A DNA stretch of 64,000 bases, taken from contig MHLM01000014.1 in NCBI GenBank assembly GCA_001821395.1, positions 174,381 through 238,380 of the forward strand, in the 5' to 3' direction. The stretch comes from Candidatus Lloydbacteria bacterium RIFCSPHIGHO2_02_FULL_50_18 (GTDB taxonomy: Bacteria; Patescibacteriota; Minisyncoccia; Phycocordibacterales; UBA6899). The notes under the pieces are model-generated. The model ran no database searches. It was given only the letters and a program-made list of their open reading frames with translations, and was not told the DNA's origin. Shown here in pieces: positions 5,946-62,430 of the stretch. Position 1 is the first letter of the stretch, and every line of letters starts with the position of its first letter. Both the position numbers and the translations under genes were made by a program.

Positions 5946-6001
5946 GAGATAGAGTATACCGTAATTGAGAAAAGAGAGAACAGACATGATACAATCTTTT
6001 T

Positions 6002-6238
6002 ATGTACGAGCCATCAAAACATCCGAACAATCCGTTGCACGGAAAAACGCTGCAGATGGTACTTGAGTATCTCCTTGAACAGTACGGCTGGGAGGAACTG
6101 GGAAAACGCATCAGTATCAAGTGCTTTATGTTGAATCCGAGTATCAAATCGAGTCTGACATTCTTGCGCAAGACCCCATGGGCACGGGAAAAAGTTGAAG
6201 GACTCTATTTGGAGACGGTTAGCAGGAATTATCAATGA
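6002..6238 (+). CDS. DUF2132 (VF530-like) small conserved protein
   Basis: 78 aa. '[31 protein letters not shown]...[13 protein letters not shown]' matches the DUF2132 family as I recall it. Confidence 0.55.
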
Positions 6239-27408: not shown

Positions 27409-30183
27409 ATGCGCCCACTCTCCGCAATCGCGCTACTTCTCTTCATGTTCGTATTTGTTCCCACCACCTCCTCAGCGATGATGATCTTCTATTTCCCTGT
27501 CCTGACGCCAAGTGAAGAGCTTGGATATGCGGGTGATGTGGTGAGTGATGGTGTCGAACCGAATACGAGTTCTGGCACACCATTCACATTTAAAATCATT
27601 TCTACCTCACATTACAATACGGCAAATGAGGTTGACCTCCTCGTCAGTGACGGAACGACAACTACTACATACATCATGCAGCGTGATCTCACCACCGCAT
27701 CAACGACACTTATCGATGGTGACTACATAAATGGGGAACAGTATTTCTATACCGGCACATTTCCCACAGGAAACTATACCTATCACTTCGAAACATTCGG
27801 TACCCAGTATCCTGAGATGGGGGAGGAGACATTTAGTGTGAGTGCCGGACCAGTGGATATTTGCGCGGGAGTCGAGAATTGCAACTCCAATGTGCTGTTT
27901 CTCCCCGGAATCATGGGCTCACGCCTGTTTGAAAATTCATTCGTCTGCGGAATACTTACCAATGAAAAAGAACGATGGGTTTCAACTTTGGATTGTGACC
28001 AGGCGCGCCTTGCACTTCGCGTAAATGGAACAAGTGTAAACCAAATATATACGAAAGAAGGGGAGGTTGGAGTCATCAATGAGGCCTATTCGTTCAACCT
28101 CTATAAATCATTTATGAGTGATTTGAAAAAGTGGAAGGAGACAGACAAGATCATCGCAGACTACGCCCTTATCCCCTATGACTGGCGCCTTTCACTTGAG
28201 GATGTTCTTCAAAATGGTGCGACTTCAACCGACGGAACATTTTCCTATGGCGCAAGCCAAGGATTTGCCAATTCCCATATCTACAGAAAGCTGACTGAGA
28301 TGGTCGCGTCGTCACGGACAAAGAAAGTTACCATTATCGCACACTCCAATGGCGGACTGGTGACCAAGGCTTTAATTCAGAAACTCAAAGAAACCCATGA
28401 CCCGCTTTATGACAAAATAGACAAGATCATATTCGTTGCAGTCCCTCAGACAGGAACACCTGAGGCAATAAGTAATATCCTCCATGGCGATCAGATCGGC
28501 CCCATGGGTTCGATTATGAGTGCCAATCGCCTTCGTGACCTTACACAAAACATGCCGGGAGCATACCACCTCCTACCCTCCGCAGCATATTTCGCAGGAG
28601 AAGGCGCAACTGTCCCTACGCCCATTGTCACGTTTGAGGATGGTACTGCAACGCAGCCGTTCATCAATCTGTATGGACATTCAATCGCGAATGCGTCTGA
28701 CTTGAAACGCTTCTTGCTTGGTGAAGATGGGAGACCAACTCCGACATATGATGATCTCGAAGATCCCACAAAGCTTAATTTCGCCCTTCTTTCCTACGCC
28801 GAAAATCTGCATCAGCAACTCGACGATAACTGGGAAGTATCTTCGTCAACCAATATATATCAGATCGCGGGATGGGGTGTGGGAACACTCGCGAATATCA
28901 ACTATCGCACAGTGCCGCACTGTGACCGCGTGGATTCAGTGATTATTCAAGGTGCACGAAATATCTATTGTGGTCTCTGGGGGAGTCGTCTCACCTTTGA
29001 CCCCAACAAAGTGATTGATGGAGATGGTACCGTGGTGATGCCAAGTGCGCTTGCGATGAGTACGAGTTCGGATAAGGTGACGAGGTATTGGGTGGATTTG
29101 GATAGGTATGGGAAAAGTGGACTTTTTAACTCAACAATCAATCGTGTTCATAAAGATATTCTTGAGGTTCCACAGCTGTGTGATTTTATTCATAATATCA
29201 TTTCGTTTTCTCTGGACACACTTCCTGTATATATTTCAACCTCAACACCACCATCAACCAACTACACAGATCGCCTCACCTTCACGCTCCACTCCCCGCT
29301 CACCCTCGAATTCACCGACACCGAAGGTCGCCATGTTGGACCATCAACGAGCACTCCGGACACATTCGACTCAAATGTCCCAGGAGCAACATATGAGCGC
29401 TATGGAGAAGTGCGGCTTCTCTCAATCCCAAAGACTGCCACAGGTACCCTTACGCTTCATGGTGTTGCGTCCGGCTCCTTCACGCTCGATCTCGCAGAAG
29501 AGAACGGAAACATCACCATTGCAACAACATCATTTGAAGGAATCACCTCTGCGACAAGTACGGTGGTGACGATGACCATTGATCCCATATCATCTCCAAT
29601 CACAAACGGCATACTTACGGTAGACACGAATGGTGATGGTACCACCATCGAAATCCTCCACGCGCACGAAGGTGAAACAGTGTTTTCTGACACCACTCCT
29701 CCCGAGGCACGGATTGGCTTCAGTACCTCTACCCAGCAACTGCGAACAATTGGTCTCGATGTATCGCCGACCAATGCGTATAAAACCGCCACCACAACCA
29801 CGGTCATCGATAGTGTGGGAAATGTCACCATCATTCATTTTTCCTCATACAAAGCAGGAAATCACAGTATTAAGGCAAAAATAGACTCCATCAGTTATAA
29901 TGGGGTAGCAACCGTAGTGAGTGCTGAGCTTTCCTATAAGTGGAGCATGAACAAGAAGGGGGAATATACGATGTTTGCCGCATATATAAAAACAGCAACA
30001 GGAATAGTCGAATCTCATTACCGCCCCAAGAAGAATCAAACGATCATCATGACAAAGGCACAGGACTTCGACGATGAGGATAATGATGACGAGTGCGACA
30101 AAAGAGCGACAAGCTCAAAAGTATCTGGTATGGTCATCCCTGGATTGGTGACCAATCAGGGGAAGATTAACGTTAATTATTAG
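27409..30183 (+). CDS. large secreted LCAT/PGAP1-like alpha/beta-hydrolase (lipase/acyltransferase) with long Thr-rich C-terminal region
   Basis: 924 aa. Signal peptide 'MRPLSAIALLLFMFVFVPTTSSA', 'IPYDWRLS' (LCAT-family motif), 'IIAHSNGG' (GxSxG nucleophile). The C-terminal roughly 450 aa are Thr/Ser-rich beta-like repeats. Confidence 0.7.
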   Translation: MRPLSAIALLLFMFVFVPTTSSAMMIFYFPVLTPSEELGYAGDVVSDGVEPNTSSGTPFTFKIISTSHYNTANEVDLLVSDGTTTTTYIMQRDLTTASTTLIDGDYINGEQYFYTGTFPTGNYTYHFETFGTQYPEMGEETFSVSAGPVDICAGVENCNSNVLFLPGIMGSRLFENSFVCGILTNEKERWVSTLDCDQARLALRVNGTSVNQIYTKEGEVGVINEAYSFNLYKSFMSDLKKWKETDKIIADYALIPYDWRLSLEDVLQNGATSTDGTFSYGASQGFANSHIYRKLTEMVASSRTKKVTIIAHSNGGLVTKALIQKLKETHDPLYDKIDKIIFVAVPQTGTPEAISNILHGDQIGPMGSIMSANRLRDLTQNMPGAYHLLPSAAYFAGEGATVPTPIVTFEDGTATQPFINLYGHSIANASDLKRFLLGEDGRPTPTYDDLEDPTKLNFALLSYAENLHQQLDDNWEVSSSTNIYQIAGWGVGTLANINYRTVPHCDRVDSVIIQGARNIYCGLWGSRLTFDPNKVIDGDGTVVMPSALAMSTSSDKVTRYWVDLDRYGKSGLFNSTINRVHKDILEVPQLCDFIHNIISFSLDTLPVYISTSTPPSTNYTDRLTFTLHSPLTLEFTDTEGRHVGPSTSTPDTFDSNVPGATYERYGEVRLLSIPKTATGTLTLHGVASGSFTLDLAEENGNITIATTSFEGITSATSTVVTMTIDPISSPITNGILTVDTNGDGTTIEILHAHEGETVFSDTTPPEARIGFSTSTQQLRTIGLDVSPTNAYKTATTTTVIDSVGNVTIIHFSSYKAGNHSIKAKIDSISYNGVATVVSAELSYKWSMNKKGEYTMFAAYIKTATGIVESHYRPKKNQTIIMTKAQDFDDEDNDDECDKRATSSKVSGMVIPGLVTNQGKINVNY

Positions 30184-30201
30184 TTCTTTAATTTAGGGAA
30201 T

Positions 30202-30639
30202 ATGGGGACAAAAAAAAACATTATCATTGTTTCAGCCCTAGCTCTCGTTGCGGTGTTTGTCGTGACAAATCCTCTCATTTTTGGTTTTTGTCGTGGCGTG
30301 TCGTCATGGAGTGATGGCACAAAATATTGTTATTCTAGCATTACAGATGACATTCCAGAGACATTCATATTATCAACAGGATTGATCGCGACCTTACTAC
30401 TGATATTTACATTTCTCACCTACCGCATGCGCGACGAAGTCTTCCGTGCATGGTGGAACTTCGCAAGATGGATGGTGCCGGTCATTATTCTTGCCACCCT
30501 CGCGGTCAACGCCATACCCTCCAATGGTGGATTCTTCAACATGGATGCCCTCGCATACCCCTTATTCCTCGGACCCCTATATATTATCCTTATTTTCGCT
30601 TCACTCTGGAAAATTGTGCGAGCGTATAGGAAGAAGTAA
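30202..30639 (+). CDS. hypothetical membrane protein
   Basis: 145 aa, four hydrophobic segments. Confidence 0.45.
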   Translation: MGTKKNIIIVSALALVAVFVVTNPLIFGFCRGVSSWSDGTKYCYSSITDDIPETFILSTGLIATLLLIFTFLTYRMRDEVFRAWWNFARWMVPVIILATLAVNAIPSNGGFFNMDALAYPLFLGPLYIILIFASLWKIVRAYRKK

Positions 30640-31022
30640 TTTGTATTCCCACTGCAAAGGTCTGAACTTTGTAGTCTACGAGTGGAGCATCAACAAGAGA
30701 TTCGTAGCGGTTGCGATGTCCATCCTTTTTGCAATCCTGAGCACGGTAATCATTCTCACGGCATTCGTTGCGTTGAGGAAGAAAAAATAGACTCCATCAA
30801 GTTATAGTGGGCTACCTGTCAATTACGTAGTGGGTCACTCGTTCCTATCGACAAGAGTCGTGTCTCACTCTTTATGAACAGCCTCTTCCTTATTGTTTCC
30901 CTGATAATCGTCGCTTGGAAATGGTTTTCGCTGCGGGAGAAGAAATAAGTTGTATCGTTCTGGTTCATAAGTAGCTTCGAATGATATGCTTGATATCAAG
31001 TATAAATATACAATTAACGATC

Positions 31023-35382: not shown

Positions 35383-35392
35383 GTCCCGCTCG

Positions 35393-35522
35393 GGTTTTCT
35401 TCTTTTGAAAGGCACACAGTCGGCCCCTCCTGCGGGGGCCGCTGTCACTCTCGGCCAATTGCCCCATCAGAATGGGGACCAAGCCAATTGTCCTCCGAGA
35501 GGCCTTTCAAAAGAAGAAAACC
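35393..35522. repeat. 130-nt element with perfect 21-bp terminal inverted repeats (MITE-like or structured RNA)
   Basis: ggttttcttcttttgaaaggc (35393-35413) and its exact reverse complement (35502-35522). The interior has three GC hairpins (ggcccc/ggggcc; cccca/tgggg; ctcgg/ccgag). 'ctcg' flanks both ends. Confidence 0.7.
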
Positions 35523-35765
35523 CTCGCCTCAGAGGAGCGGCGTTTGAGTTTGGTGCCCGCAGGTGGAGAAGAAACACTTGGCAGAATAGCTAGTTAGTGC
35601 GAGTATGTTTAGTAACTCGTGACCGAGTTCTCGGGAGGAAACGAGCGAAATTAGAATACGCAAAACATGAATATAGTGTATTTATCCCCATTCTCAGAGA
35701 CTTGGGTTGCAAAGGGCTTGCAGGCTGAGTATTTTCAACTCCTAAACGAGTTTAAAAAATAAAAT

Positions 35766-36125
35766 ATGAATATAAATATAAAAGCATTACATTTTTTGGG
35801 ATTACCGATTAAAAGAGAAATCTATACAAAAGCAATTTGCTCACTCTTCGGAATACTCATTTTATTTTTTGTTGTACTGGTCGTCGTGCCTTCGGTGGTT
35901 TGGCAGGCAGTACCATATTTGCTTTGGGCAATTATAATTATGTATGTTTTCTATATCGGAATTGCTCTCATTGTCTCTTTTTATCTCATAAGTCGAAGAC
36001 TTAAAACCTTGGGATATTCCACGCTGTGGATGATACTGATGTTCTTTCCAATCTTTTTTGTTTTTGTGGTGCTCGGTCTTATGGCACCAAGTGATGAAAA
36101 AATAGTTTACAAAATTTCAGCCTAG
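35766..36125 (+). CDS. DUF805-family small inner-membrane protein
   Basis: 119 aa. 'ISRRLKTLGYSTLWMIL' resembles the DUF805 'RRLHDxGxSGWW' motif. AT-rich coding region. Confidence 0.55.
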   Translation: MNINIKALHFLGLPIKREIYTKAICSLFGILILFFVVLVVVPSVVWQAVPYLLWAIIIMYVFYIGIALIVSFYLISRRLKTLGYSTLWMILMFFPIFFVFVVLGLMAPSDEKIVYKISA

Positions 36126-36166
36126 TTTGGGGCAATCACACTGACCCCAGTGGACCAAAGTTGGGA

Positions 36167-36838
36167 ATGTGGATTATTGCATTATTTGGAGGAAACAAAA
36201 TCCTCACCCATATGAAATCAAAGAAGAAGCCCGTAATAGAGCACAAAAGAAAGATACGAAACATAAGTGACTATGTTTATGACTGCCTCAACCGCCTGCG
36301 TGACCACGCTGACCTCATTTTATATCTTGGTAAACACAAGGACGACTTTGCCGGGGGTACACCAAAACAAAGCCTCTCTATAATTATTTCAATGATCGAC
36401 GTCTATTCAAGGGATGCCATTGTTATTTTCGGCACAATTTTTGATAAGAATAGGCAGACATCATCACTTTATACGATGGTTGACCACATAAAAGATGAGA
36501 AGAAGCGGAAGCGTTATCAGAAGAGGCTAGATAATATAAAAACATCTATAAATCAAATAGTCCGTGCCAGAGGAAATCAGGTTGGTCATTTCAATACAAA
36601 ACTGAATATCCACGACAACCACGACAATGGCTTTATTCATATCAACGGTGTTTTTCAGGTGGACCCACGCTTTACAAAAAAGATAGCAAATAGAATAGAG
36701 CGATTTTACTGGGATATTAGAGAAGAGCTTGGGGTTGAAGGAACTTTTGTTTTTCACAAAGGAGAACCAACCGCAAAGTCATTTGCCAGATTGGTCGGCA
36801 AGGCACCCAAGCGCTTGAGTGGTGGTATAAAAACTTAA
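36167..36838 (+). CDS. hypothetical protein, possible HEPN-like (Rx4-6H 'RGNQVGH')
   Basis: Start ambiguous (TTG 36161, ATG 36167 or ATG 36212). Low-GC. Helical, Lys-rich. Confidence 0.4.
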   Translation: MWIIALFGGNKILTHMKSKKKPVIEHKRKIRNISDYVYDCLNRLRDHADLILYLGKHKDDFAGGTPKQSLSIIISMIDVYSRDAIVIFGTIFDKNRQTSSLYTMVDHIKDEKKRKRYQKRLDNIKTSINQIVRARGNQVGHFNTKLNIHDNHDNGFIHINGVFQVDPRFTKKIANRIERFYWDIREELGVEGTFVFHKGEPTAKSFARLVGKAPKRLSGGIKT

Positions 36839-37015
36839 ACCTTGATACCCAATGTAGTGGGGTAGGGTGTGGGAATATAGATTGTCGCATCATTTAATCG
36901 TTCAAACACAGTTCTAACGTCCTCTACGACGCGACGGCTGGTCTTGGGCGAGTAAATAGACAGACGATATGCAAATTGCTAGGGTGGAGGCAGTTGTTCA
37001 ATACAAGGAGTTTTT

Positions 37016-37789
37016 ATGAGGCCATATATTGGTATTTGCGACTTTACCGCACCGGAACAAGCGCATCGCCTGCTCCAGTTGATCCCTCACGGATTTTCTC
37101 ATGACCTTATGGTCGGCGTGATGATGAGCTATAAAACGCTCAATAATCTTCCGACAAAATGGGCAAGGGTGTTTCCTGCGAAAAAGAATATTCGATCGAT
37201 CTTCGTCGATGATCCGCGCGTCTTGAATACCATTCATTATGCCGATTATGCCACAGGGGTTGATGCCGATCGACAGCTCGCGTATACGCTGGCCAAGGTG
37301 GAGATCTACGGCGGAGCGTGTCTTGGGGCGATCCAGCTCGATATGATCTGGCCGGATCCGGATGAGCTCAAGAAGTTTCGCGAGCACTGTAATATCCCCA
37401 TCATCCTGCAGGTTGGTGCGAATGCGATGCGCGAATGCGGCGATGACCCCATTGCAACCTGTGAGCGATTGAAGACGTATGGCACTACGATCAATGCCGT
37501 ACTTTTTGATAAAAGCATGGGTCGCGGGGTGGGGATGGATGCCGCGCTCTTGGCGAAGTATGCGGGAGTGCTTTCGTTCGACTGCCCGCATCTTGCACCC
37601 GCAGTGGCCGGGGGGCTTGGTCCGTCATCAATGGACCTCGTGGCACCGCTCATTCGAGCGTTTCCCGATCTTTCGATCGACGCACAGGGGCGGCTGCGTA
37701 AGAGCGGCAACATGAAAGACCCGATCGATTGGTCGATGGCGGAAGATTATTTCACGCAAGCGGTGGCACTGTTTTCCAAACAACCGTAA
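37016..37789 (+). CDS. TIM-barrel protein, phosphoribosylanthranilate isomerase (TrpF)-like
   Basis: 257 aa. 'GICDFT', 'IQLDM', 'VAGGLGPSS' resemble PRAI motifs. Good RBS (AAGGAG) and a downstream terminator. The overlapping minus-strand ORF was rejected. Confidence 0.5.
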   Translation: MRPYIGICDFTAPEQAHRLLQLIPHGFSHDLMVGVMMSYKTLNNLPTKWARVFPAKKNIRSIFVDDPRVLNTIHYADYATGVDADRQLAYTLAKVEIYGGACLGAIQLDMIWPDPDELKKFREHCNIPIILQVGANAMRECGDDPIATCERLKTYGTTINAVLFDKSMGRGVGMDAALLAKYAGVLSFDCPHLAPAVAGGLGPSSMDLVAPLIRAFPDLSIDAQGRLRKSGNMKDPIDWSMAEDYFTQAVALFSKQP

Positions 37790-46052: not shown

Positions 46053-46124
46053 GTCCTTGTCGTTCAATGGATAGGATATCTCCCTCCGAAGGAGATGATG
46101 CTGGTTCGATTCCAGCCAAGGGCA
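46053..46124 (+). tRNA. tRNA-Arg (anticodon CCG)
   Basis: Manual cloverleaf: acceptor gtccttg/caagggc (one G-U), D-arm gttc-aatggata-ggat, anticodon stem tctcc/ggaga with loop cTCCGaa (U33, CCG, A37), T-arm gctgg-ttcgatt-ccagc, discriminator A. CCA not encoded. Confidence 0.85.
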
Positions 46125-60364: not shown

Positions 60365-61378
60365 ATGGGATTATTTTCTGCAAAACTGGGAATCGACCTT
60401 GGGACCGCAAATACACTCGTATACGTACCGGGCCGCGGCATTGTGCTCAATGAGCCTTCAGTAGTTGCGGTTTCGGAGCGGGATAACCGTATCCTTGCCG
60501 TCGGTATTGAAGCAAAAGAAATGATCGGCCGCACGCCGGACGATATCATTGCATACCGACCGATGCGCGACGGGGTCATCGCCGACTATCGTGTGACCGA
60601 AGCAATGCTTCGCTATTTCATCGGCAAAGCAATGGGGCGTTGGAATCTTCTCAAGCCAGAAGTCATGGTCTCCGTTCCTGCGGGCGTCACCTCGACCGAA
60701 CGACGCGCGGTGATCGAAGCCGCGATGCGTGCCGGAGCCAAGAATGCGTTCGTCGTGAAGGAGCCGATCCTCGCCGCTATCGGTGCAGGCATCCCTATCT
60801 ATGAAGCGCGCGGACACATGGTCGTCGACATCGGAGGAGGAACGACCGACGTCGCGGTGATCTCACTCGGAGGCATCGTTGCGTCCACGTCGGTGAAGTG
60901 TGCGGGCAACCGTATCGATCAGGCGATCGCGGACTACATCAAAAAAACCTTCAATCTTGCGATCGGTGACAAGACTGCGGAAGACATCAAGATCAAGATC
61001 GGCTCAGCGGTGCCGCTTGAGGAAGAACTCACACTTGTCATCAAGGGCCGTGACTTTATCGCGGGACTCCCACGCTCCGTGACCGTCTCTTCGAACGAAG
61101 TAGTAAAGGCGATCGATAAGGAGCTGCGCGAAATGGTGAAAGCCATAAAGGACGTGCTTCAGGAGACTCCGCCGGAGCTTTCCGCGGATATCATCGACCA
61201 GGGGATCATCATGACCGGCGGCTCATCAATGCTGCGCAATCTCCCCGAGCTCGTTTTTCGCCGTACTGGCGTCAAGGCCATTCTCGCGGAGGATGCACTG
61301 TATTGTGTGGTGAAGGGGACCGGAGTTGCCCTCGAACATCTCGACACCTACAAGCGCTCGATAATCGCGAAGCGTTAA
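60365..61378 (+). CDS. mreB: rod shape-determining protein MreB
   Basis: 'LGIDLGTANTLVYV', 'VVDIGGGTTDVAVISLGGIV', actin-fold phosphate motifs. Confidence 0.9.
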   Translation: MGLFSAKLGIDLGTANTLVYVPGRGIVLNEPSVVAVSERDNRILAVGIEAKEMIGRTPDDIIAYRPMRDGVIADYRVTEAMLRYFIGKAMGRWNLLKPEVMVSVPAGVTSTERRAVIEAAMRAGAKNAFVVKEPILAAIGAGIPIYEARGHMVVDIGGGTTDVAVISLGGIVASTSVKCAGNRIDQAIADYIKKTFNLAIGDKTAEDIKIKIGSAVPLEEELTLVIKGRDFIAGLPRSVTVSSNEVVKAIDKELREMVKAIKDVLQETPPELSADIIDQGIIMTGGSSMLRNLPELVFRRTGVKAILAEDALYCVVKGTGVALEHLDTYKRSIIAKR

Positions 61379-61478
61379 ATTGGCGCCCTACTTGTCCTTC
61401 CTTCGTCGGGTTCGAAGGACGTATGAGGAATACGCCCTCTCGAACACCGACTCAGTCCAAGACTTTGTATTGCGACCA

Positions 61479-61531
61479 ATTTTTCTTGGCCGTATTCAGC
61501 TTTAGAAAAATGAAGTACTCCCGTGGTGCAT
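61479..61531 (+). repeat. roughly 55-nt intergenic repeat, copy 2
   Basis: Matches 24153-24207 (exact 20-mer tttagaaaaatgaagtactc plus flanking similarity). Confidence 0.6.
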
Positions 61532-61699
61532 CCAATTGTAAACGCTTCTTTCTGCAGACTTTTCACCATGTCGTATTATTGTCACGCTTGAACTTCATCC
61601 AAATTTCCTCCACGCCGTGAAGTTTTACGCATTTTGGTGCATCTCAATTAACAATATTACCTTATTGCGTCCTCATGCGTTCTTTTTTGCAATTATTAA

Positions 61700-61736
61700 C
61701 TAAAAATGAAATGAAAGGGACCGCCATTGGCGGTCC
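61700..61736 (-). terminator. intrinsic terminator for the small minus-strand gene
   Basis: Stem ggaccgcc/ggcggtcc; on the minus strand followed by ctttcatttcattttt. Confidence 0.6.
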
Positions 61737-61755
61737 GATTTTGAAAGAACGTTGG

Positions 61756-61968
61756 TTAGAAAATTTTGTTCAACGTGAGTAGTAATCCAACGAACCCGAT
61801 AATAATAAGCAAGAACCCCATTTTTACTCGGAATCTTGGTTTTACTGTATCACCAGTGTCCCAGCCAAGGTTATCAGTCTCGCATAGGTCCAAATACCAA
61901 AAGACAGTTGCAATGCCGCTCGAAAAACATAGTACAAAGATCAAGGCAAGAATCATGTTAATATCCAT
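61756..61968 (-). CDS. small 2-TM membrane protein
   Basis: 70 aa. AGGAG RBS. Has its own TTGACA promoter element copy upstream. Confidence 0.45.
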   Translation of the reverse strand: MDINMILALIFVLCFSSGIATVFWYLDLCETDNLGWDTGDTVKPRFRVKMGFLLIIIGFVGLLLTLNKIF

Positions 61969-61989
61969 TTCGGAGCTCCTGTAGTGTGT

Positions 61990-62035
61990 GATGAATTCCC
62001 AAAATCATGCTCACACGGTTAATTACTTTTGTCAA
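61990..62035 (-). promoter_or_regulatory. conserved promoter/operator element copy 1 (TTGACA...gattttgggaat)
   Basis: On the minus strand: TTGACAaaagtaattaaccgtgtgagcatgattttgggaat; about 85% identical to the copy at 62385-62430. Confidence 0.5.
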
Positions 62036-62037
62036 GA

Positions 62038-62066
62038 ATAAAAAAGCGCCAAATGGCGCTTTTTGG
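62038..62066. terminator. bidirectional terminator
   Basis: Stem agcgcc/ggcgct with loop aaat, flanked by A-run and T-run. Confidence 0.6.
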
Positions 62067-62080
62067 GTATGGTGTGAGCG

Positions 62081-62362
62081 CTAGCTCAATCCCATTTTCT
62101 CGTATATCTCGGCAATAACACGGTCCCGTTTCTCCTCATCATTTTTGCAAGAGTAGTACTCCGGGTCGCGAATGTTTTTGTAGCACACCCTAATAAAATA
62201 CTCGAAACTCTCAGGGTCCGGTTTTTTTCCGCCATTCTTGCGTTGTTCGTCAAGATCCTTTTGGTTGAAAATGGGTTCCGGTGCCATGGCGATGATTTCG
62301 CGTATCTCCGAGACATTAATTACGATGCTTGGTCCTAGTTTTACAAAGACGTTTTCCATCAA
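62081..62362 (-). CDS. hypothetical small soluble protein
   Basis: 93 aa. AAGGAGAAG RBS. Confidence 0.45.
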   Translation of the reverse strand: MMENVFVKLGPSIVINVSEIREIIAMAPEPIFNQKDLDEQRKNGGKKPDPESFEYFIRVCYKNIRDPEYYSCKNDEEKRDRVIAEIYEKMGLS

Positions 62363-62384
62363 ACTTCTCCTTCGTGGGTGGGGG

Positions 62385-62430
62385 GATTCCCAAAATCATA
62401 TTTACACAGTGAATCGCTTTTGTCAACTTT
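62385..62430 (-). promoter_or_regulatory. conserved promoter/operator element copy 2
   Basis: On the minus strand: TTGACAaaagcgattcactgtgtaaatatgattttgggaat, i.e. TTGACA-17-AAATAT followed by the shared 'gattttgggaat'. Confidence 0.5.

What the first reader, a model, noticed from the sequence alone, without database searches (positions are those of the whole stretch)
35760..36840. Low-GC islet with a DUF805 membrane protein and a possible HEPN-motif protein
Roughly 1.1 kb is visibly AT-rich compared with its surroundings (runs like 'aaatatgaatataaatataaaagcattacatttttt'). It is bounded on one side by the inverted-repeat element and wedged between an efflux operon and a trpF-like gene. It encodes a 119-aa polytopic protein with an 'RRLKTLGYSTLW' motif (DUF805-like 'RRLHDxGxSGWW') and a roughly 220-aa Lys-rich helical protein with an Rx5H motif ('RGNQVGH') reminiscent of HEPN RNase active sites (as in Abi/toxin families). 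A membrane protein plus putative HEPN effector in a horizontally acquired islet is the typical layout of small abortive-infection or toxin modules.
Basis: partly seen in the sequence, partly recalled or inferred. Interest (0 to 1): 0.5.

Follow-up and report, generated by a model that had tools for sequence, protein, structure and literature searches.

The report
Solo HEPN defence-gene cassette in hot spot
A 1.25-kb foreign, AT-rich insert in a groundwater Candidatus Lloydbacteria genome carries a stand-alone HEPN (AbiU2-like) predicted RNase gene that moves between genomes as a 0.7-kb single-gene cassette; this is an ordinary kind of phage-defence gene, but it ends in an odd, unexplained repeat.

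Summary
Window 35689-36942 has 38% GC against 49.8% for the window (z -4.3, the lowest in 64 kb). It is missing from the same macB|p257 slot in relatives: the slot is empty in one, holds a 95-aa ORF in another, and holds an AriA/OLD-like defence ATPase in the closest.

The 208-aa protein (36212-36838) is a divergent HEPN_AbiU2 relative. R120 and H126 are invariant and sit at the end of helix 3 of a predicted four-helix bundle. Distant family members pass the Pfam threshold. UniRef already names the protein "HEPN AbiU2-like".

The proposed "membrane protein plus HEPN" module is not supported. The 119-aa membrane ORF has no homolog in 5.8 billion proteins, and its DUF805 match is below threshold. 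In 13 other contexts the HEPN gene has different neighbours, mostly restriction, helicase, PARIS or reverse-transcriptase genes.

The HEPN gene travels as a ~700-nt unit. That unit ends in a ~70-nt block with protein-coding-type conservation on the opposite strand but no start codon. The window has one full and one degenerate block flanking the gene. Elsewhere, four such blocks delimit three unrelated cassettes. The block is unexplained.

Most likely function: a single-gene abortive-infection RNase. This is inferred, not shown.

The parts
35689..36942 (.). Foreign low-GC segment (the islet proper) in the variable slot between macB and the conserved 257-aa gene
   Evidence: DNA homology to the closest relative L014 stops at 35688 and resumes at 36943. 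GC is 0.38 against 0.50 for the window. The same slot is empty in L017 (63-nt spacer), holds about 800 nt in L015, and holds an AriA/OLD-like ATPase gene in L014.
35766..36125 (+). 119-aa ORF with about three predicted membrane spans. It is found in no other genome. Its DUF805-like motif RRLKTLGYSTLW follows the second span.
   Evidence: ORF listed. Hydropathy segments. Pfam DUF805 E 2.9e-4, 21.7 bits, below the 25.7 threshold; ABC2_membrane_2 scores 23 bits, also below threshold. The only match in 5.8e9 proteins is itself, P0034, named by NCBI as a hypothetical protein of Candidatus Lloydbacteria. No PADLOC, NCBIfam or PHROGs hit.
36139..36201 (-). Degenerate partial copy of the type-2 block. 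The minus strand reads 'ILFPPNNAIIHIPNFGPLGSV*'. It contains the left copy of direct repeat D1 (36162-36187).
   Evidence: 26-nt direct repeat, 81% identical, spacing 708 nt. nhmmer match to the second half of the block model, E 0.3. Alignment and translation.
36192..36211 (+). Conserved 5' leader of the HEPN cassette. It is the last about 7 codons (KQNPHPY) of a small upstream ORF that is intact in other loci but truncated here.
   Evidence: Homology to other cassettes begins at -20. The upstream ORF '..W[ST]EEERxRIVGAFEILLKxDKKQNPHLY..' is intact in L005, L028, L033 and L034-36.
36212..36838 (+). HEPN_AbiU2-like gene, 208 aa. It is a predicted metal-independent RNase and is intact.
   Evidence: 33 homologs at 53-100% identity, about 198 aa long. 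24 of 26 family members hit PF18734. Distant members P0045 and P0048 pass the Pfam threshold. hhalign of A1 against P0048: 95.7% probability, E 8.7e-9. AF2 pLDDT 79.9, four-helix bundle. UniRef name 'HEPN AbiU2-like domain-containing protein'.
36569..36589 (+). Codons for R120-G-N-Q-V-G-H126, the Rx5H motif and predicted catalytic site
   Evidence: R120 and H126 are two of only four residues invariant across 36 sequences down to 20% identity. [quoted passage not shown] That is the position described for Rx4-6H in PMC3710099.
36865..36938 (-). Full type-2 block, the conserved ~70-nt 3' end of the cassette. It contains the right copy of direct repeat D1 (36870-36895). The minus strand reads '..RRVVEDVRTVFERLNDATIYIPTPYP..*' with no start codon.
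   Evidence: nhmmer E 1.8e-21. Also present 3' of the HEPN gene in L009, L010 and L023, with homology ending at its far edge. dN/dS 0.14 in this frame only. 20 protein clusters end in this motif with unrelated N-termini. Four direct copies delimit cassettes in L179. No conserved hairpin and no Rfam hit.

Best explanation
The islet is horizontally acquired cargo in a variable defence hot spot between macB and a conserved 257-aa gene of a Candidatus Lloydbacteria (Patescibacteria/CPR) genome. Its functional gene is a stand-alone 208-aa HEPN-domain protein from a small, divergent branch of the AbiU2 family.

By analogy with characterised HEPN RNases, it should act as a metal-independent endoribonuclease, probably as a dimer. 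The active site would be built from R120 and H126 at the end of helix 3, assisted by the D63x3R67 motif in helix 2. The likely role is to cut host or phage RNA on infection, as abortive infection or growth arrest.

The gene moves between genomes as a single-gene unit of about 700 nt: about 20-40 nt of leader, the ORF, and a ~70-95-nt conserved 3' block. The 119-aa membrane ORF beside it is an unrelated passenger, or possibly a spurious ORF, and not a partner.

Shown: foreign composition; absence from relatives; HEPN family membership by sequence, motif and predicted fold; cassette-like mobility; defence-island contexts.

Inferred: RNase activity, dimerisation, phage trigger and defence phenotype.
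For: Composition and hot spot:
- GC z = -4.25 and low GC3.
- The slot is empty or differently filled in L017, L015 and L014, and in L014 it holds an AriA/OLD-like ATPase.

HEPN identity:
- 24 of 26 family members hit PF18734.
- Profile-linked members P0045 and P0048 exceed the gathering threshold.
- hhalign gives 95.7% probability, with R and H aligned.
- R120 and H126 are invariant across 36 sequences.
- UniRef already names it HEPN AbiU2-like.

Cassette behaviour:
- L034 and L011 are 97% identical from -36 to +74 of the ORF, in unrelated flanks.
- The right junction always falls at +75 to +97.

Defence contexts: HpaII restriction-modification, UvrD/ResIII/NucS-like genes, HEPN_AbiV plus SNase, PARIS AriAB, SocA_Panacea plus a reverse transcriptase, and a DGR.

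Precedent: AbiU2 HEPN genes occur in restriction-modification operons (PMC3710099). A single-gene HEPN-AbiU2 integron cassette is reported to protect against T4 and T7 (bioRxiv 10.64898/2026.03.17.712381).
Against: - The window protein itself scores only 16.8 bits against PF18734, below the threshold of 26.8.
- It has no PADLOC hit apart from a weak, irrelevant one and no PHROGs hit.
- There is no match in phage or plasmid collections or in IMG/VR.
- Fold searches are topped by generic or designed four-helix bundles, and Foldseek found nothing significant. The fold is therefore compatible with HEPN but not diagnostic of it.
- The residue after R120 is Gly in the close family, not the usual polar N, D or H.
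- The loop after H126 is modelled with low confidence and carries a 9-nt tandem duplication here.
- No activity, expression or phage data exist for any member of this family.
- About half the loci have a small overlapping upstream ORF that is truncated here, so this copy could be a decaying remnant.
Confidence: 0.6

Rival explanations
1. The 119-aa membrane protein and the HEPN protein form a two-gene abortive-infection or toxin module, with the membrane protein acting as sensor, effector or antitoxin alongside the HEPN nuclease.
For: The two ORFs are adjacent, on the same strand, 86 nt apart, and share the low GC. In one other lineage (L006-L008) a different membrane protein, PrsW-like and 161 aa, sits 28 nt upstream of the HEPN gene.
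Against: The 119-aa ORF has no homolog anywhere else. None of the other HEPN loci carries a relative of it. The upstream neighbours are unrelated to one another: a soluble 160-aa protein, a PrsW-like protein, RE_HpaII, a 152-aa protein, a divergently oriented DUF6804 gene and small ORFs. A degenerate block copy separates the two ORFs, which suggests separate acquisition.
Confidence: 0.08
2. The HEPN protein is the toxin of a toxin-antitoxin pair whose antitoxin is the small upstream ORF (53-77 aa, overlapping the HEPN start) seen in about half the loci. The window copy has lost that antitoxin, so it is an orphan: either inactive and decaying, or neutralised in trans.
For: Small ORFs overlap the HEPN start in L005, L028, L032, L033 and L034-36 and are conserved at the peptide level ('..EERxRIVGAFEILLKxDKKQNPHLY'). 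The window retains only the last about 7 codons. Overlapping small upstream genes are typical of toxin-antitoxin operons (established knowledge).
Against: At least six distinct lineages lack the small ORF (window, L011, L013, L006/8/27, L029, L030) yet keep an intact HEPN ORF with every invariant residue. The small ORF has no family match. No MNT-type nucleotidyltransferase is adjacent in any locus.
Confidence: 0.15
3. The protein has a HEPN-like four-helix fold but is not a defence nuclease. It could be, for example, a nucleic-acid- or ligand-binding accessory protein of the mobile unit, involved in the unit's own maintenance or mobility through the 3' block.
For: Fold searches are non-specific. 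The gene is always linked to a conserved 3' block of unknown function. The family is tiny, with 15 representatives among 1.84e9 proteins.
Against: The invariant R and H sit at the canonical catalytic position. The block also occurs without the HEPN gene in L179 and L182, so the block does not depend on it. HEPN domains that retain Rx4-6H are predicted RNases (PMC3710099).
Confidence: 0.1

Closest known systems
HEPN_AbiU2 family (Pfam PF18734; AbiU2 of the Lactococcus lactis AbiU system; Anantharaman et al. 2013, PMC3710099)
   Same: Rx4-6H motif at the end of helix 3, four-helix bundle, stand-alone small protein, occurrence next to restriction-modification and other defence genes. There is a profile-level sequence link.
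   Different: The window protein is below the Pfam threshold. R is followed by Gly-Asn rather than directly by a polar residue. The subfamily is confined, as far as sampled, to small-genome Patescibacteria-like contigs. No AbiU1-like or Sel1-repeat partner is present.
Single-gene HEPN-AbiU2 integron cassette of Vibrio mimicus MB461 (HNPBCG_15845; bioRxiv 10.64898/2026.03.17.712381), and the 'integron cassette HEPN' Vpc_cass2 (PDB 3jrt)
   Different: No attC-type hairpin, no R''/R' core pairing and no integron integrase were seen here. The 3' block instead shows protein-coding-type conservation. Sequence identity to 3jrt is about 7%.
HEPN-MNT (HepT-MntA) type II/VII toxin-antitoxin systems
   Same: A small HEPN RNase toxin with an Rx4-6H active site.
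   Different: No adjacent minimal nucleotidyltransferase gene in any of the loci. HepT (6m6u_D) matched only at Foldseek E 2.4.
Defence islands and hot spots with swappable cargo between conserved core genes
   Same: The same pair of core genes (macB and the 257-aa gene) flanks different cargo in related genomes: nothing, a 95-aa ORF, an AriA/OLD-like ATPase, or TM119 plus HEPN.
   Different: The scale is very small (0-2.3 kb, one or two genes), and no integrase or tRNA is at the site.

Membership tests
HEPN superfamily | [quoted passage not shown] | tested here: met
HEPN superfamily | [quoted passage not shown] | tested here: met
   R120x5H126 is invariant in 36 sequences. Its position in the model matches the description in PMC3710099.
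HEPN superfamily | Conserved acidic residue in helix 2, typically in an Ex3[KR] motif | tested here: met
   D63-V-Y-S-R67 (Dx3R) is nearly invariant and lies in helix 53-76. It has Asp in place of Glu. Spatial proximity to the motif was not measured.
HEPN superfamily | Polar residue (N, D or H) immediately after the conserved Arg | tested here: inconclusive
   The close family has R-G-N. Distant members have R-N, R-S, R-H or R-Y.
HEPN superfamily | Metal-independent RNase activity | not testable with these tools
   Needs biochemistry.
Pfam PF18734 HEPN_AbiU2 | Score at or above the gathering threshold (26.8 bits) | tested here: not met
   The window protein scores 16.8 bits, E 0.0048. However, 24 of 26 relatives hit this family, members P0045 (29.5 bits) and P0048 (33.1 bits) pass, and hhalign of A1 against P0048 gives 95.7%.
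DUF805 (PF05656), for the 119-aa ORF | Score at or above the gathering threshold (25.7 bits) | tested here: not met
   21.7 bits, E 2.9e-4. ABC2_membrane_2 scores 23 bits, also below its threshold.
   RRLKTLGYSTLW lies after the second hydrophobic segment. There are no homologs with which to test conservation.
Two-gene abortive-infection or toxin module (membrane protein plus HEPN) | Conserved co-occurrence of the two genes across genomes | tested here: not met
   The 119-aa ORF is unique to this genome. HEPN neighbours differ in every lineage.
HEPN-MNT toxin-antitoxin | Adjacent minimal nucleotidyltransferase antitoxin gene | tested here: not met
   No nucleotidyltransferase domain appears among the called neighbours in any locus.
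Horizontally acquired islet | Deviant composition, and absence from the same site in relatives | tested here: met
Integron gene cassette with attC | 3' site that folds as an imperfect hairpin (R''-L''/L'-R', with RYYYAAC...GTTRRRY) | tested here: not met
   No consensus structure or covariation on either strand. Single-sequence folds are no better than shuffles, apart from a window-specific stem with z -2.1.
Integron gene cassette with attC | Arrays of same-orientation sites that delimit single- or few-gene cassettes | tested here: met
   L179 has four direct copies of the type-2 block at 6083, 7094, 8246 and 10072, delimiting three cassettes. The window has one full and one degenerate copy flanking the HEPN gene.
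Integron gene cassette with attC | Integron integrase (IntI) and attI next to the array | not tested
   No recombinase appears among the called genes within about 6 kb in L001 or L179. The rest of the window and of those contigs was not screened.

The most novel reading that the evidence does not exclude
The ~70-nt blocks at the 3' end of the HEPN cassette come in two types. Type 2 reads 'G[AD]VVEDVRTVFExxNDATIYIP' and type 1 reads 'DPxAWLSELxxxRxYI'. They may be the junction or attachment sites of a previously undescribed gene-cassette system in Patescibacteria.

They mark the exact point where homology between cassette copies ends. They occur as same-orientation arrays that delimit unrelated cassettes. 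Unlike attC, they have no hairpin. Instead they evolve like the last about 25 codons of a protein (dN/dS 0.14), around a nucleotide-invariant core (GTTnGAACTGTGTTTGA), yet they lack a start codon and no full-length host gene ends in them.

One reading is that integrating cassettes carry a replacement 3' end for a target gene. Another is that a recombinase exchanges C-terminal gene segments. On either reading, the islet in the window would be a two-cassette array of such a system.
Probability: 0.25. Interest if true: 0.65.

Novelty: new member of a known kind. Interest (0 to 1): 0.35.

Why it matters
The gene itself adds a divergent, CPR-restricted branch to the AbiU2-type HEPN defence genes. 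It also shows that very small Patescibacteria genomes keep a swappable defence slot, holding HEPN here and an AriA/OLD-like ATPase in the nearest relative. That is useful for cataloguing CPR immunity, but it is not surprising.

The more interesting by-product is the cassette architecture. A single-gene unit ends in a repeat with coding-type conservation, and that repeat also delimits unrelated cassettes in another genome. If the repeat is a recombination site, it would point to a way of shuffling genes in CPR bacteria that does not use integron-type hairpins.

Tried and rejected
1. Known defence or phage families. PADLOC, NCBIfam and PHROGs gave nothing meaningful for either ORF.

2. Phage, plasmid and IMG/VR searches. 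The HEPN protein had no match.

3. Short 14-16-mers from the blocks, scanned in IMG/VR. They gave 120+ and 21 hits, but none matched the full element by tblastn, so they are chance k-mers. Longer degenerate block patterns gave 0 hits.

4. Structured RNA or attC-like site. There was no Rfam hit, no fold better than shuffles except one window-specific stem, and no consensus structure or covariation. Rejected.

5. tRNA or tmRNA-like target. ARAGORN finds only tRNA-Arg at 46053.

6. The block as the 3' end of a full-length host or recombinase gene. No protein longer than 121 aa ends in the motif. The longest, P0058, has no Pfam, PHROGs or PDB match, so my recollection that it resembles a serine-recombinase C-terminus is unsupported.

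8. A weak C-type-lectin match to residues 149-191 of the profile (E 0.076) is treated as chance, because the model is helical there.

9. Alignment A2 was too diverse for the search for related loci, so A1 was used instead.

10. The sigma-70 promoter and terminator scan found nothing on the + strand inside the islet. This is uninformative for CPR promoters.
Full report
**Observation**

The region is real and unusual for this window. Positions 35760-36840 have GC 0.381. The window mean is 0.498 with sd 0.0275 for windows of equal length, so z = -4.25, and the minimum over the whole 64 kb overlaps the islet (profiles). GC3 is 0.35 for the first ORF and 0.42 for the second, against 0.50-0.60 in six neighbouring genes.

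Both ORFs exist. The first is 35766-36125, 119 aa. The second belongs to a family about 198 aa long, and its start is the ATG at 36212, giving 208 aa and ending at 36838. Upstream lie HlyD, an ABC ATPase and a MacB/FtsX permease. The downstream 257-aa gene has no Pfam, NCBIfam or PDB match, so 'trpF-like' could not be confirmed. NCBI names the source organism as Candidatus Lloydbacteria bacterium RIFCSPHIGHO2_01_FULL.

**Is it an acquired islet?**

I used the 257-aa protein to fetch the same locus from nine other genomes and mapped the window's proteins onto them.

| Locus | 257-aa identity to window | Content between macB and the 257-aa gene |
|---|---|---|
| L017 | 63% | Nothing: macB is followed after 63 nt by the 257-aa gene |
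| L015 | 64% | About 800 nt with a 95-aa ORF |
| L014 (closest) | 91% | About 2.3 kb with a 568-aa AAA_15/AAA_21 ATPase; best PADLOC matches AriA (3.7e-30) and Old (8.6e-23); GC 0.356 |

DNA homology between the window and L014 stops at 35688 and resumes at 36943. The foreign segment is therefore about 35689-36942. The slot is a small hot spot with swappable cargo that is defence-like in at least one case.

The large inverted repeat at 35385-35530 folds at -81.4 kcal/mol with z -10.5. It lies in the part shared with L014, so it is not part of the islet.

**The 208-aa protein**

A search of 5.8 billion proteins found 33 relatives at 53-100% identity, all unnamed and about 198 aa long. A profile search of 1.84 billion representatives found only 15 hits, so the family is small.

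Against Pfam, the window protein matches only HEPN_AbiU2 (PF18734), and weakly: 16.8 bits against a threshold of 26.8. The link to that family is nevertheless well supported:
- 24 of 26 relatives hit the same family.
- Two distant members recovered by the profile, P0045 (E 4.6e-14) and P0048 (E 3.4e-6), exceed the threshold at 29.5 and 33.1 bits.
- hhalign of the family alignment against P0048 gives 95.7% probability and E 8.7e-9, with RARGNQVGH aligned to RRNERIAH.

In a 36-sequence alignment reaching down to 20% identity, only S66, D78, R120 and H126 are invariant. R16, D20, R28, D63, Y65, R67 and D68 are among the nearly invariant positions.

With this deeper alignment, AlphaFold2 gives pLDDT 79.9 and pTM 0.75, and all five models agree. 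The helices are 11-41, 53-76, 96-124 and 152-173, with an insert at 77-95. R120 is at the end of the third helix and H126 is at the start of the following loop. Anantharaman et al. 2013 place the Rx4-6H motif exactly there, and they also describe a conserved acidic residue in helix 2 within an Ex3[KR] motif (PMC3710099). Here the counterpart is D63x3R67.

UniRef already names this exact protein 'HEPN AbiU2-like domain-containing protein'.

**The 119-aa ORF**

It has about three hydrophobic spans. Its match to DUF805 is below threshold at 21.7 bits against 25.7, and ABC2_membrane_2 scores slightly better. Its only match among 5.8 billion proteins is itself. It cannot be shown to be a DUF805 protein, or even to be under selection.

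**Is there a two-gene module?**

I read 13 further distinct contexts of the HEPN gene. The gene immediately upstream differs in each:
- a soluble 160-aa protein (L005);
- a PrsW-like membrane protein (L006-8);
- RE_HpaII of a restriction-modification system (L011);
- a 152-aa protein following SocA_Panacea and a reverse transcriptase (L009);
- a divergently oriented DUF6804 gene (L013);
- UvrD plus small ORFs (L034-36);
- a HEPN_AbiV-containing cluster (L033);
- a cluster with a PLD-SNF2 helicase (L032).

Downstream neighbours include a fused PARIS AriAB (E 1.9e-115) and a PDC-S02 candidate. None of these loci has a relative of the 119-aa ORF. The 'membrane protein plus HEPN' module is therefore not supported, while the defence-island association is.

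**The HEPN gene as a cassette**

Pairwise DNA comparison shows that homology between copies is confined to the gene and short flanks. L034 and L011 are 97% identical from -36 to +74 relative to the ORF, in otherwise unrelated surroundings. The right-hand junction always falls at +75 to +97. The left-hand junction varies: -20 in the window, -36 in L011, and -73 to -82 in L005, L034 and L033.

The left flank is the end of a small ORF ('..W[ST]EEERxRIVGAFEILLKxDKKQNPHLY..', 53-77 aa). This ORF overlaps the HEPN start and is intact in about half the lineages. The window keeps only KQNPHPY, at 36192-36211. Six lineages lack this ORF but keep an intact HEPN gene, so it is not an obligatory antitoxin. 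That possibility is kept as a rival.

**The 3' block (unexplained)**

Directly after the stop codon, most loci carry a conserved element of about 70-95 nt, and it comes in two types. The window (36865-36938), L009, L010 and L023 have type 2.

*Coding-type conservation.* On the minus strand, type 2 reads G[AD]VVEDVRTVFExxNDATIYIP, followed by 2-16 variable residues and a stop. Across eight copies:
- 15 of 21 codons vary at the third position;
- dN/dS is 0.14 in this frame;
- the two other frames that could be computed give about 0.5 (from a single sequence pair) and about 1, and the remaining frames yielded no usable pairs, because stop codons interrupt them.

Type 1 reads DPxAWLSELxxxRxYI.. 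and gives dN/dS 0.43. Arg is kept through AGA-to-CGT changes.

*No sign that it is expressed as an ORF of its own.* There is no conserved start codon, and one copy has a stop codon immediately upstream. Twenty protein clusters in the large database end in the type-2 motif, with unrelated N-termini, and none is longer than 121 aa. The central GTTnGAACTGTGTTTGA is invariant even at synonymous positions.

*No sign that it is a structured site.* There is no conserved hairpin, no covariation and no Rfam match.

*It delimits cassettes.* In L179, four same-orientation copies delimit three unrelated cassettes next to htrA. The cassettes are a 255-aa protein; a glyoxalase plus an OmdA-like protein; and two DUF6326 proteins plus HTH_3 plus a 147-aa protein. 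In the window, a degenerate half-copy at 36139-36201 precedes the HEPN gene. That explains the 26-nt direct repeat 36162-36187 / 36870-36895 found.

The blocks behave like cassette junctions, but they are not attC-like. I cannot say what recombines them.

**Mechanism**

The most likely reading (confidence about 0.6) is a single-gene HEPN RNase that works in phage defence by abortive infection. This rests on three things:
- the catalytic motif and the predicted fold;
- the defence contexts;
- published precedent: AbiU2-type HEPN genes in restriction-modification operons (PMC3710099), and a single-gene HEPN-AbiU2 integron cassette reported to protect against T4 and T7 (bioRxiv 10.64898/2026.03.17.712381).

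RNase activity, dimerisation and the trigger are inferred, not shown.

**Verdict**

The HEPN interpretation is supported, but it is already annotated. The two-gene module and the DUF805 and trpF labels are not supported. The finding is a new, divergent member of a known kind and is of modest interest. The block and cassette architecture is the part worth following up.

Noticed in passing
window 36865-36938 and 36139-36201; L179 6083-6157, 7094-7162, 8246-8318, 10072-10139; L182 6160-6235; L009 5618-5692: A ~70-nt 'type-2 block' shows protein-coding-type conservation (dN/dS 0.14; 'G[AD]VVEDVRTVFExxNDATIYIP') but has no start codon, no hairpin and no full-length host gene. It marks cassette junctions and forms a four-copy array that delimits three unrelated cassettes in L179.
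   Followed up: partly
L005 6676-6760, L011 5598-5680, L013 5598-5680, L033 4595-4685, L006 6592-6680, L029, L030, L034: A second 'type-1 block' lies 3' of the HEPN gene in most other loci. Its minus strand reads '..DPxAWLSELxxxRxYIxxx[IV][EQ]xL..*', with dN/dS 0.43. Homology between copies ends exactly at its far edge ('..GGGTCAC|'), often just before a terminator hairpin.
   Followed up: partly
L034 3307-3468, L033 3723-4056, L032 3771-4004, L005 about 5990-6130, L028; window 36192-36211 (remnant): A small upstream ORF family ('..EERxRIVGAFEILLKxDKKQNPHLY..', and a second family '..EKFKEL..ALITLxxAVYKPIxKxEYD') overlaps the HEPN start in about half the loci. It has no family match. It could be a regulator or an antitoxin. 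It is truncated in the window.
   Followed up: partly
window 35385-35530: Perfect 22-nt inverted repeats (35392-35413 and 35502-35523) enclose two inner hairpins. The fold is -81.4 kcal/mol with z -10.5. The element lies right after the macB stop, outside the islet, is about 69% conserved in L014, and has no other copy in the window.
   Followed up: partly
L014 4191-5897: In the closest relative, the same macB|257-aa slot carries a 568-aa AAA_15/AAA_21 ATPase (PADLOC AriA 3.7e-30, Old 8.6e-23) with GC 0.356. This makes the slot a defence hot spot.
   Followed up: yes
window 37016-37789: This 257-aa protein is conserved in Patescibacteria (43-91% identity in nine genomes) but has no Pfam, NCBIfam or PDB sequence match. 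The 'trpF-like' label is unsupported, and its function is unknown.
   Followed up: partly
window 36611-36628: A 9-nt tandem duplication (cacgacaac cacgacaat) adds 'HDN' to the loop just after the catalytic His, compared with all other family members.
   Followed up: no
L006 2274-3931, L007, L008; L009 2643-3704: A diversity-generating-retroelement-like pair (RVT_1 plus bAvd) lies 2-3 kb upstream of the HEPN gene in one lineage. Another RVT_1 gene, next to SocA_Panacea, lies upstream in L009.
   Followed up: no
window about 29950-31000 and about 61350-62400: Two further stretches of lower GC (about 0.42-0.43 over 1.08 kb). They are the only other places in the window that fall below 0.43.
   Followed up: no
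HEPN family profile positions 149-191 (window protein about residues 152-194): A weak sequence match to the 'WIGL..EG.W.W.DG' region of C-type lectin domains (DC-SIGNR, E 0.076). The model is helical there, so it is probably chance.
   Followed up: no
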